Shown: in pieces, positions 681 to 2,776 of the stretch | Numbering within the stretch: position 1 is the stretch's first letter | Layout of the letters: every line of letters begins with the position of its first letter | Source of the DNA: a virus | Taxonomy: Duplodnaviria > Heunggongvirae > Uroviricota > Caudoviricetes | Length of the DNA: 4,402 nucleotides | IMG/VR virus record: IMGVR_UViG_2663762839_000010 | Direction: 5' to 3' (one strand) | Translations under genes and position numbers: made by a program | The notes under the pieces: model-generated | The model's database searches: none | What the model was told of the DNA's origin: nothing | The model's input: only the letters and a program-made list of their open reading frames with translations

Positions 681-2776
681 AACCATCCTCCGGAAGTCAG
701 CCAGGGGTTAACATCGTCAGTTACTGTTTTCTTCCGTTTTTGTTTTTTAACAGGCGTGGATACCGGTTCCGGTGAGGATGACGGTTCGGTACTGTCCTGG
801 ACACACTCCAGCCAGGTCTCCCGGCTCGCCCACTCCGGTGCATCCGGCCAGCGGATCTTTTCGTATCCATGCAGAATGACCAGAGCCTAGGCATACACCA
901 TCAGGTCAAAAGCTTCGTTGGCACCGCGACCCGGCTTACTCCATTTCCCGTCACTGCTCCGCTCTTCATACGTCAGTTCGTCGTAAAACCAGCTCCCCAG
1001 CTAGTCAGGGAAATGCACATAGCCTGGACCTGGCGAGTCACGCCATAACGCGTTATTCACCCGGTCTTTCAGGGCATCCGTCTGAAGAAGCCAGAGCGGC
1101 ACATCACCTGCGGCCTGCGCCCGGCGGCCCGTTCGTCCGGTGTTATCAGGGAATGTACGGCTGATCAGTTTTGCGCGCCGGATGCTGTCACCCTTAAACA
1201 GGTAAATACGTTTACCAAGGCCATCACGACGGCAACGACGCCAGAATTTATAGGCATTATCAGTGACCCCGTCTTCACCGCCGGAGTCCACCGCCATTGC
1301 CATCAGTCGCATTTGTTGAGAAGGATCGGAGGCCAGCGGCCAGCTTTTATGAAAAACATCCGTCAGCAGGACATCCCAGTCTTCCGGATAGCTGGCCGGA
1401 TCAATTCGCTGGCTCTCCCCGTCGCAGTCACTGCGCAATGACTGCGTGATGTTGTAACGATCAATAATCCAGCGTTCGCCACGACTGCCATAGCCCGTTA
1501 CCTGAACCACAAAACAGCGATGACGTCCCGCCTGCACATCCACTGTCGCCACAAGGAAATTAACGCCATCCGGCACACTGCGGGAAGGAACTGGCTCTGC
1601 CCGCTGCTCAAGCAGTTCACTTTTTCGTTGCTCCATGCTGGCACGAGGAAGATAAGGCAATCCCCAGTCGGTGTTGATAACCGCCCTGAGTGTTTCTTCG
1701 CTTCCTGTCGCTTCATACTCCTGTTCTGCAGTCAGTAATTTGTAAACCAGTTGCGCCCAGGTCTGATACGCAGCAGCTGGCCCTTCCATCCAGAAACTGG
1801 CGATACGGGAGCGGCGCGGTTCACCGGAAACGTTGCCGTTACGATCAATGACCTGACCTTCACGCAACCAGACTCCTGCACTATTGAGCTCACGCTTTTT
1901 CTCCGCAGTGATAATGCCGCTGCAGTGCGGGCAAAGTAGATACGCCGCCTCACTGGCTTTAAAGGGATCCGGTTCATTACGGTAGCCGGTCATGGCATCC
2001 ATGGCTGGCTGAAAATATTCACCGCAGTGCGGACATGACCAGTACCAGCGGCGGCGGTCACCACGATTGTAAAGGGAAAGAATACCAGTCGTCGGTGGCG
2101 CTTCATGAGGCGACTTACGTCGCCATTTGCTGTCGCAGATGTCACGTCCCGGCGAGCTCTCCACCAGAGTCATCCCGGCGGACATAAATGTGGTGGTACG
2201 TTTTGAGGCCAGGGAGAAACCATCACCCTCGCTGTCGATATTCTCCGGAAAACGGTCGTAATCGGTTAAGGCGACAAACCGGTAATCCGACGACGACATA
2301 ATGTTGACCGAGGGCCAACCAATTTTAAGGAACGAGCCATCCCTGAACGTCTTATCATGGACATTATTGTCGTTACGACGTGGACTCATTCTTTTCTTTA
2401 CCGCCGCACTGCTTCTGAACGTTCTGTCGAGGCGCTTTTTAGAATGCTCGCGGGCCTTATCTTCGGTCATCTGCACAACGAGCATGTCCGAAGGATCGCA
2501 AACGATGGTATAGACAATCCATCCATCGATCAGACCAATGGTCTTCCCTGTTTGCGCAGGACCAACAAAAATCACCGCATCGTATTCACGCGATGCCAGG
2601 CAGTTCATGGGCTCAATGATGTAGGGTGTCAGTTCAGGATCCCATGGCACCGAGTTACCAGCCCCCTTGGGAACACGCATGAATTTTTTAACAGCCTCCG
2701 AAATCGGCATGCGACGTGGTGGGGAAAATCCTGCCGATATGTCCCTTCCCAAATTTCGGGCTGATGAAAAACCCAT
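677..2776 (-). pseudogene. Terminase large subunit (lambda gpA family), about 699 codons, interrupted by two in-frame amber TAG codons at 1001-1003 and 887-889
   Basis: Track ORF 1001..2776 (591 aa) has a P-loop VGPAQTGKT, paired CPHCG...CPHCS cysteine motifs (lambda gpA has ACPHCGEE...YLCEHNAC), and ATVDVQAGRHRCFVVQVTGYGSRGERWIIDRYNI resembling gpA AGIDSQLDRYEMRVWGWGPGEESWLIDRQII. Start ATG 2774-2776 is preceded by AGGAGG that overlaps the TAG of the upstream gene. After the TAG at 1001-1003 the same frame continues for 37 codons (LGSWFYDELTYEERSSDGKWSKPGRGANEAFDLMVYA), hits a second TAG at 887-889, then continues 69 codons (ALVILHGYEKIRW...KKQKRKKTVTDDVNPWLTSGGWL) to TGA at 677-679. NEAFDLMVYA matches my recollection of the gpA C-terminal region NEALDCFVYA. 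Confidence 0.85.

What the first reader, a model, noticed from the sequence alone, without database searches (positions are those of the whole stretch)
887..1003. Large terminase gene is broken by two in-frame amber codons but is otherwise intact
The gpA-like frame continues unbroken for about 106 codons past the TAG at 1001-1003 and a second TAG at 887-889, ending at a TGA (677-679) that overlaps the W-like start as ATGA. The downstream segments still look like a gpA C-terminus, so these are two point nonsense lesions, not frameshifts or deletions. Both lie in the forward-strand tetranucleotide CTAG (1001-1004 and 887-890), which is generally rare in enterobacterial genomes. The pattern suggests either recent inactivation of a packaging enzyme in a decaying prophage, or a gene needing amber suppression (as in classical lambda Aam mutants). 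The flanking small terminase and W-like gene are intact.
Basis: partly seen in the sequence, partly recalled or inferred. Interest (0 to 1): 0.7.

Follow-up and report, generated by a model that had tools for sequence, protein, structure and literature searches.

The report
Dead terminase gene in decayed prophage
The large terminase gene of a leftover E. coli prophage carries two genuine single-base stop mutations, but the prophage has also lost all its head and tail genes, so this is ordinary decay of a dead virus.

Summary
On the minus strand, a 699-codon lambda-gpA-family large terminase gene (2776..677) is interrupted only by TAG at codon 592 (1003..1001) and codon 630 (889..887). It ends in a TGA that overlaps the next gene's start as ATGA. 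Near-identical E. coli prophages give the ancestral codons as TGG (Trp) and GAG (Glu). Neither TAG occurs in any of 1,907 complete E. coli genomes carrying this region. Neither occurs in the species-representative genomes, JGI metagenomes or IMG/VR contigs searched. The 591-aa product is on record from one contig only. That contig is the window itself, a 4.4-kb contig of draft assembly GCA_000946855.1.

Context settles the reading. A 16.2-kb deletion with 8 bp of microhomology at 485-492 joins the gene downstream of terL to the middle of the tail-fibre gene, removing the portal, capsid and tail genes. The terminase also has two private missense changes and no synonymous ones. Relatives show independent terminase lesions: a deletion, an amber at codon 296 and a frameshift.

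The first stop removes residues invariant from this protein to lambda gpA, plus the C-terminal tail that docks on the portal in lambda.

Verdict: neutral pseudogenisation in a cryptic Qin-site prophage. Amber suppression is unlikely, and sequencing error cannot be excluded without reads. Low interest.

The parts
677..2776 (-). Large terminase (terL, lambda gpA family) pseudogene: 699 codons plus TGA, with two internal TAG codons.
   Evidence: Translation. Pfam GpA_ATPase 40-303 and GpA_nuclease 325-643 on the read-through protein. The restored protein is 99.4% identical to the 699-aa terL of phage HannyBb. The window DNA is 99.8% identical to prophages whose terL is annotated intact.
1001..1003 (-). 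Amber codon 592. Ancestral TGG (Trp) became TAG; + strand C>T at 1002.
   Evidence: TGG in all 6 aligned E. coli relatives and in all 43 IMG/VR relatives that cover it. Absent from 1,907 complete E. coli genomes and from three contig collections.
887..889 (-). Amber codon 630. Ancestral GAG (Glu) became TAG; + strand C>A at 889.
   Evidence: GAG in all 6 relatives and in 42 of 42 IMG/VR relatives that cover it. Absent elsewhere.
2552..2554 (-). Private missense R75Q (CGA>CAA) inside the Walker A motif G72-P-A-R/Q-T-G-K-T79.
   Evidence: Gln occurs naturally at this position in two distant homologues, Sano and PLY284, so its effect is uncertain.
1514..1516 (-). Private missense R421C (CGT>TGT).
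   Evidence: The position varies across the family.
468..680 (-). 70-aa gene downstream of terL, in the position of the gene annotated as head-tail adaptor in related phages. Its start overlaps the terL stop (ATGA). Its last 5 codons are replaced (GYRLARF to GYLLPVR) by the deletion junction.
   Evidence: The only Pfam match is DUF6148, below threshold (18.8 bits against a cut-off of 27). The syntenic gene is annotated head-tail adaptor in HannyBb and mEp213.
485..492 (.). Deletion junction. The 8-bp microhomology GGTACCCG is shared by the 3' end of the gene downstream of terL and by tail-fibre codon ~631. 16,200 bp are missing relative to strain H10, covering portal, protease/capsid, tail, J, lom and the 5' 60% of stf.
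   Evidence: No complete E. coli genome has this junction.
1..484 (-). Internal 3' fragment of a prophage tail-fibre (stf) gene, from about codon 632 of 1031. It lacks its own start and carries one private missense change, S699P at window 288.
2785..3312 (-). Intact DUF1441 gene (175 aa) in the position of the small terminase subunit.
   Evidence: Pfam DUF1441, E 3.9e-44. The exact sequence is on at least 1,000 contigs. It is annotated at the same position in relatives. The syntenic genes in mEp213 and Fels-1 are annotated as small terminase.
3875..4081 (-). Conserved 68-aa hypothetical gene with one private synonymous change, at 3889.
4317..4402 (+). Fragment from inside the chromosomal gene ycjX (from nt 287 of the CDS, sense orientation), joined bluntly to prophage DNA at 4316|4317.

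Best explanation
The terminase gene is a pseudogene in a cryptic lambdoid prophage of the E. coli Qin-site type. This type is integrated between ydfJ and rspB, and its terS-terL module is of the Gifsy/Fels-1/mEp213 kind.

Two independent single-base substitutions, TGG>TAG at codon 592 and GAG>TAG at codon 630, arose in this lineage. The gene was no longer under selection, because the same prophage has lost its portal, capsid and tail genes through a 16.2-kb microhomology-mediated deletion.

Translation should stop at codon 592. The resulting 591-aa product keeps the ATPase domain and most of the nuclease domain. It lacks the last ~50 residues of the nuclease-domain model, including residues invariant from this protein to lambda gpA: E604, W612, N620, E621, D624 and Y628, equivalent to lambda E563, W578, N585, E586, D589 and Y593. 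It also lacks the 56-residue C-terminal tail, which in lambda is the portal-docking tether. The second TAG lies in sequence that is then untranslated and has no further effect.

Shown here: the lesions, their ancestral states, their uniqueness, the deletion, and the conservation of the lost segment. Inferred: the substitutions are real rather than assembly errors, the truncated protein is inactive, and the changes were neutral.
For: - Ancestral codons and lack of indels.
- Family and domain positions.
- Full-length 699-aa orthologues in functional phage HannyBb (99.4% identity), in mEp213 (78.6%) and in hundreds of E. coli prophages.
- Invariant residues downstream of the first stop, mapped to lambda gpA.
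- In lambda, an amber at only the fifth-to-last codon (Aam42) already abolishes prohead binding and virus yield (PMC4856287). TerL-lambda's C-terminal domain is an endonuclease centre, then a helix, then a portal-binding tether (PMC9026076).
- The 16.2-kb deletion is collinear with the intact H10 prophage and has 8-bp microhomology.
- All four private terL changes alter the protein (2 nonsense, 2 missense, 0 synonymous). Six of the 10 other variable terL sites among the six aligned relatives are synonymous.
- Three of the eight differences from those six relatives in 485-4316 (3352A, 3412G, 3740G) are shared with KFu022, so they are lineage polymorphisms. Six changes remain private: the four in terL, the synonymous 3889 and stf S699P.
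- Private substitutions are about as dense outside terL as inside it. The branch length matches that of the finished relative KFu022 (3 against 3 private changes in 2.9 kb). This fits natural neutral divergence rather than error.
- Independent decay of the same gene occurs elsewhere. KFu022 terL is cut after about codon 462 by another deletion. IMG/VR L077 has an amber at codon 296 and L028 has a frameshift at codon 45.
Against: - Two nonsense changes among only four private substitutions in the gene is nominally improbable under neutrality (P about 0.01; both TAG about 0.002). The finding was, however, selected for this property.
- The whole case rests on one 4.4-kb contig of a draft assembly. 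That contig also carries an odd junction to ycjX, so contig quality cannot be verified.
- Whether the deletion preceded the stop codons is unknown.
Confidence: 0.8

Rival explanations
1. Sequencing or assembly error. The strain really has TGG and GAG, and the two TAGs (perhaps the other private substitutions too) are consensus errors in a short, possibly low-coverage contig.
For: - The window is an entire 4,402-bp contig of a fragmented draft assembly; it is record number 407.
- Both alleles are seen nowhere else.
- The contig carries a junction to ycjX with an unusual topology that could be chimeric.
Against: - The differences are substitutions only, with no private indels.
- The number of private changes equals that of the finished genome KFu022 over the shared 2.9 kb.
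- The left junction is collinear within one prophage and has microhomology, as a real deletion would.
- Random errors would give two stops out of a handful with probability of only about 0.01.
Confidence: 0.1
2. Adaptive inactivation. Once the prophage had lost its capsid genes, a terminase that could still cut the chromosomal cos site on late-gene expression would be harmful. Mutations disabling it were then favoured rather than merely tolerated.
For: - All four private terL changes alter the protein, and two are stops.
- terL is independently destroyed in related prophages: KFu022 by deletion, L077 by an amber, L028 by a frameshift.
Against: - Substitution density is no higher in terL than in flanking non-coding DNA.
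- A second stop downstream of the first cannot be selected.
- The first stop lies late in the gene and leaves the ATPase and most of the nuclease domain, a weak way to disable the enzyme.
- Most relatives keep terL intact: the six aligned E. coli relatives all have an annotated full-length gene, and only 2 of the IMG/VR matches above 99% identity carry a lesion.
Confidence: 0.07
3. Suppressor-dependent functional gene. The host carries an amber suppressor tRNA, so full-length terminase is still made, as with laboratory lambda Aam phages grown on supE or supF hosts.
For: Both stops are amber, and the frame is otherwise open for all 699 codons.
Against: - The portal, capsid and tail genes are deleted on the same contig, so there is nothing for the terminase to fill.
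- There is no tRNA gene in the window.
- Two ambers would multiply the inefficiency of suppression.
- supE would insert Gln and supF Tyr (own knowledge). At codon 592 the homologues have Trp in 7 of 8, Glu in one and a gap in lambda.
- The alleles occur in no other genome, so there is no sign of a maintained system.
Confidence: 0.02

Closest known systems
Lambda gpA-family large terminases of Gifsy/Fels-1/mEp213-type lambdoid phages (Pfam PF05876 + PF20454), for example Escherichia phage HannyBb terL
   Same: Same two-domain architecture. The restored protein is 99.4% identical to HannyBb, 78.6% to mEp213, about 70% to Fels-1 and about 24% to lambda gpA. Gene order is also the same: DUF1441 small-subunit gene, terL, then a small gene annotated head-tail adaptor whose start overlaps the terL stop.
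   Different: Here the gene has two internal TAG codons and two private missense changes, and the portal gene that should follow is deleted.
Cryptic prophage Qin of E. coli K-12 and its counterparts at the ydfJ-rspB site
   Same: Relatives of the window sit between ydfJ and rspB and carry ydfK, pinQ, tfaQ, stf, gnsB, ynfN, cspI, rzpQ, rrrQ, ydfR, dicA, dicB and dicC. Lineages lose the head and tail module through independent internal deletions: the window here, and KFu022. K-12 Qin is a further example, from my own knowledge of the K-12 annotation.
   Different: The deletion end points are unique to this assembly. This remnant keeps a full-length terL reading frame, inactivated by point mutations rather than removed.
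Laboratory lambda Aam mutants (for example Aam42)
   Same: An amber codon in the large terminase gene truncates the C-terminus. Aam42, at the fifth-to-last codon, abolishes prohead binding (PMC4856287).
   Different: Those are conditional-lethal alleles of a complete phage, kept on suppressor hosts. Here the stops lie in a naturally deleted prophage remnant, with no evidence of a suppressor.

Membership tests
Lambda gpA-family large terminase (TerL) | N-terminal GpA_ATPase domain (PF05876) with a Walker A motif | tested here: met
   PF05876 over residues 40-303, E 2.5e-80, 270 bits against a cut-off of 25.6. The motif is G72-PA(R>Q)T-G77-K78-T79.
Lambda gpA-family large terminase (TerL) | C-terminal GpA_nuclease domain (PF20454) with the conserved acidic residues | tested here: met
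   For the read-through translation, PF20454 covers residues 325-643 and the full profile 1-294, E 2.7e-85. D413, D497, E604, E621 and D624 align with lambda D401, D465, E563, E586 and D589. In the actual product, the last three lie beyond the stop at codon 592.
Lambda gpA-family large terminase (TerL) | Synteny: small-subunit gene upstream; small adaptor-position gene and portal gene downstream | tested here: inconclusive
   The DUF1441 gene upstream and the 70-aa gene downstream are present. The portal gene is absent from the window because of the 16.2-kb deletion, but present in relatives.
Functional (expressed, full-length) terminase gene | Uninterrupted reading frame to the family's normal C-terminus | tested here: not met
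   TAG at codons 592 and 630. Orthologues read TGG and GAG and run to 699 aa.
Suppressor-dependent amber allele (lambda Aam-like system) | An amber suppressor tRNA in the host and an otherwise complete phage | tested here: not met
   The phage is incomplete, with portal to tail fibre deleted. The window has no tRNA gene. The rest of the host genome could not be examined.
Cryptic / defective lambdoid prophage (Qin-site type) | Prophage genes in a bacterial chromosome with loss of essential morphogenesis genes | tested here: met
   The window is 99.8% identical to Qin-site prophages over 485-4316. It has an internal 16,200-bp deletion. It is joined to the chromosomal gene ycjX at the right end.

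The most novel reading that the evidence does not exclude
The most novel reading not excluded is adaptive inactivation. In a capsid-less remnant that still has a cos site and late-gene expression, cos-cutting terminase is toxic, so inactivating hits are selected. That would explain two stops and two missense changes among four private substitutions, and the repeated independent terL lesions in related prophages. A remoter version is that the strain is a natural amber-suppressor host.
Probability: 0.07. Interest if true: 0.35.

Novelty: already known. Interest (0 to 1): 0.08.

Why it matters
It matters little. The window is a clean example of how a resident prophage decays, combining a large internal deletion with scattered point lesions in genes that have lost their function. 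It is useful mainly for annotation: the 591-aa ORF should be flagged as a pseudogene fragment, not as a short terminase. Comparison with KFu022, K-12 Qin and two IMG/VR relatives shows that the Qin-site prophage loses its packaging and morphogenesis module repeatedly and independently. Nothing here opens a new question unless the adaptive-inactivation idea were tested and held.

Tried and rejected
1. A natural short terminase ending near codon 591 is rejected. The nuclease profile runs through to residue 643, and functional phages have the 699-aa form.

2. TAG alleles borrowed from a paralogous prophage copy (collapsed repeat) are rejected. No copy in 1,907 complete genomes has either allele; the best match is 99.1% over 211 nt, which is exactly 2 mismatches.

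3. A Dcm/Vsr hotspot origin is rejected by inspecting the ancestral contexts. Neither site is CCWGG: they read GCCAGT and CCTCGG.

4. A tRNA or known RNA in the window that could bear on suppression: none found.

5. A solved structure of a close relative, to place the truncation: no PDB sequence match at E <= 0.01. I did not run structure prediction.

6. Identifying the strain from the literature by assembly or WGS accession: no paper found.

I replaced it with a flanking 28-mer from the window, which found 68 contigs.

8. Text confirming the role of lambda E586 and D401: the primary paper (Arens et al. 2019) is not held and a text search found nothing usable. That link therefore rests on the title as cited in PMC9026076 and on my own recollection.

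Full report
**What is in the sequence**

The minus strand carries an ORF from ATG 2776..2774 that reads 699 codons to TGA 679..677. It has exactly two internal stops, both TAG: codon 592 (1003..1001) and codon 630 (889..887). There are no frameshifts. The terminal TGA overlaps the ATG of the next gene (680..678) as ATGA. RefSeq annotates the same 4-nt overlap in intact relatives. Both TAGs lie in + strand CTAG, and the window has 5 CTAG against 17 expected from base composition.

**What the gene is**

Read through the stops, the protein matches Pfam GpA_ATPase (residues 40-303, E 2.5e-80). It also matches the entire GpA_nuclease profile (residues 325-643, E 2.7e-85).
- The upstream gene (2785-3312) is an intact DUF1441 protein in the small-terminase position. 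Its exact sequence is on at least 1,000 contigs.
- The restored protein is 99.4% identical over all 699 residues to the large terminase of the isolated phage HannyBb.
- It is 78.6% identical to mEp213, about 70% to Fels-1, about 40% to Casjensviridae terminases and about 24% to lambda gpA.
- The family therefore does not end near codon 591, and the downstream similarity is real.

**Ancestral states and uniqueness**

Window 485-4316 is 99.8% identical to prophages in many E. coli chromosomes. In all six that I aligned, codon 592 is TGG (Trp) and codon 630 is GAG (Glu). The lesions are therefore a G>A transition and a G>T transversion on the coding strand.
- A 211-nt query across both sites finds 1,907 complete E. 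coli genomes. None is better than 99.1% (2 mismatches), so none carries either TAG.
- Exact 23- and 25-mers containing each TAG are absent from 185,579 species-representative genomes, from the JGI metagenome contigs and from IMG/VR.
- A flanking 28-mer from the window finds 68 IMG/VR contigs. Every one that covers the sites has TGG (43 of 43) and GAG (42 of 42).
- The exact 591-aa product is on record from a single contig, CDRI01000407.1 of assembly GCA_000946855.1. That contig is 4,402 bp long and is the window itself.

**Context: a deleted prophage**

The window is not collinear with any complete genome at its ends.

Positions 1-492 match the interior of a 1,031-codon prophage tail-fibre gene. 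Positions 485 onward match the 3' end of the small gene downstream of terL. The two matches overlap in the 8-bp GGTACCCG. In strain H10 the two segments lie 16,200 bp apart in the same prophage, in the same order and orientation. Between them lie the portal, protease/capsid, head-completion, tail, tape-measure, J and lom genes and the 5' 60% of stf. This is the signature of a real microhomology-mediated internal deletion.

The deletion changes the last five residues of that downstream protein, from GYRLARF to GYLLPVR. The gene is therefore not strictly intact. The H10 prophage sits between ydfJ and rspB and carries pinQ, tfaQ, gnsB, ynfN, cspI, rzpQ, rrrQ, dicA, dicB and dicC. That is the Qin site.

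**Other private changes**

Against the six relatives, the window has eight unique substitutions in 485-4316, plus one in the stf fragment.
- Three of them (3352, 3412, 3740) are shared with strain KFu022, so they are lineage polymorphisms.
- Private to the window are terL R75Q, R421C, W592* and E630*, a synonymous change in the 68-aa ORF, and stf S699P.
- R75Q lies in the Walker A motif GPA-R-TGKT. Gln is natural there in two distant homologues, so its effect is uncertain.
- Over the shared 2.9 kb, the window and the finished KFu022 genome each have three private changes. The window's branch is not unusually long, which argues against a generally error-ridden contig.
- In terL the private changes are 0 synonymous, 2 missense and 2 nonsense. 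Six of the ten other variable terL sites among the six relatives are synonymous.
- About 4.1% of random single-base changes in the ancestral gene create a stop and 1.7% create TAG. That gives P(>=2 of 4) of about 0.01 and 0.002. This is nominally unusual, but the window was picked for this very feature.

**Consequence of the first stop**

In a nine-sequence alignment running from this protein to lambda gpA, six invariant residues lie after codon 592. They are E604, W612, N620, E621, D624 and Y628, equivalent to lambda E563, W578, N585, E586, D589 and Y593.

The Feiss laboratory describes the TerL-lambda C-terminal domain as an endonuclease centre, followed by a conserved helix and a C-terminal portal-binding tether (PMC9026076). 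Lambda Aam42, an amber at only the fifth-to-last codon, already prevents prohead binding and virus production (PMC4856287).

Losing 108 residues should therefore abolish packaging, and probably correct cos cleavage as well. This is an inference from homology, not a test. The second TAG lies downstream of the first and adds nothing.

**Decay of the same gene elsewhere**
- KFu022, the nearest relative for 1385-4316, has an independent deletion that cuts terL after about codon 462 and fuses it to J and tfa fragments.
- IMG/VR contig L077 has GAG>TAG at codon 296.
- L028 has a 1-nt deletion in codon 45.
- K-12 Qin lacks terL altogether (my own knowledge of the K-12 annotation).

Loss of the packaging module in this prophage type is therefore recurrent and ordinary.

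**Explanation and rivals**

The best explanation is neutral pseudogenisation of terL in a cryptic prophage that can no longer make particles (confidence about 0.8).
- Assembly error (about 0.1) cannot be excluded, because only one draft contig carries the alleles. However, there are no private indels, the branch length is normal, and the deletion junction is well behaved.
- Selection for inactivating a potentially chromosome-cutting terminase (about 0.07) would fit the excess of damaging changes. It is not needed, though, and it cannot explain a second, downstream stop.
- Suppressor-dependent expression (about 0.02) is contradicted by the missing head and tail genes. There is also no tRNA in the window.

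**Comparison with known systems and verdict**

The gene is a member of the lambda gpA terminase family by both domain tests and by synteny. It fails the test for a functional gene. The element is a Qin-type cryptic prophage. The resemblance to laboratory lambda Aam mutants is only formal. Nothing here is new in kind, so interest is low.

Noticed in passing
window 4316|4317 and 4317-4402: Prophage DNA is joined bluntly, without microhomology, to nt 287 of the chromosomal gene ycjX in sense orientation. In FDAARGOS_497, ycjX lies 274 kb upstream of the prophage on the same strand. The joint therefore has the topology of a tandem-duplication or circle junction, not a deletion. The contig stops only 86 nt into this single-copy gene, as if ycjX occurred in two contexts in the assembly graph. 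It could also be a chimeric join. No complete E. coli genome has this junction.
   Followed up: partly
window 485-492 (and 1-484): A 16,200-bp internal prophage deletion with 8-bp microhomology GGTACCCG joins the 3' end of the gene downstream of terL to tail-fibre codon ~631. It is unique to this assembly. It rewrites the last five residues of that gene's product while, by coincidence, keeping its length at 70 aa.
   Followed up: yes
L086 (E. coli KFu022) 3255-5457: The nearest relative of window 1385-4316 has an independent deletion in the same Qin-site prophage. It leaves terL codons 1 to ~462 fused to fragments of J (DUF1983) and the tail-fibre assembly gene.
   Followed up: partly
L077 3440-5207 and L028 5002-7100 (IMG/VR contigs): Two further relatives above 99% identity carry independent terL lesions: GAG>TAG at codon 296 in L077 and a 1-nt deletion in codon 45 in L028.
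   Followed up: partly
window 2552-2554: The private R75Q change lies inside the terminase Walker A motif (GPARTGKT to GPAQTGKT). The aligned residue in lambda gpA is R79. Gln occurs naturally there in phages Sano and PLY284, so the change may be tolerated.
   Followed up: partly
window 3343-3874: A 530-bp non-coding stretch lies upstream of the small-terminase gene, where the cos site of this phage type would be expected. It has no Rfam or tRNA match, and the cos site itself was not located.
   Followed up: no
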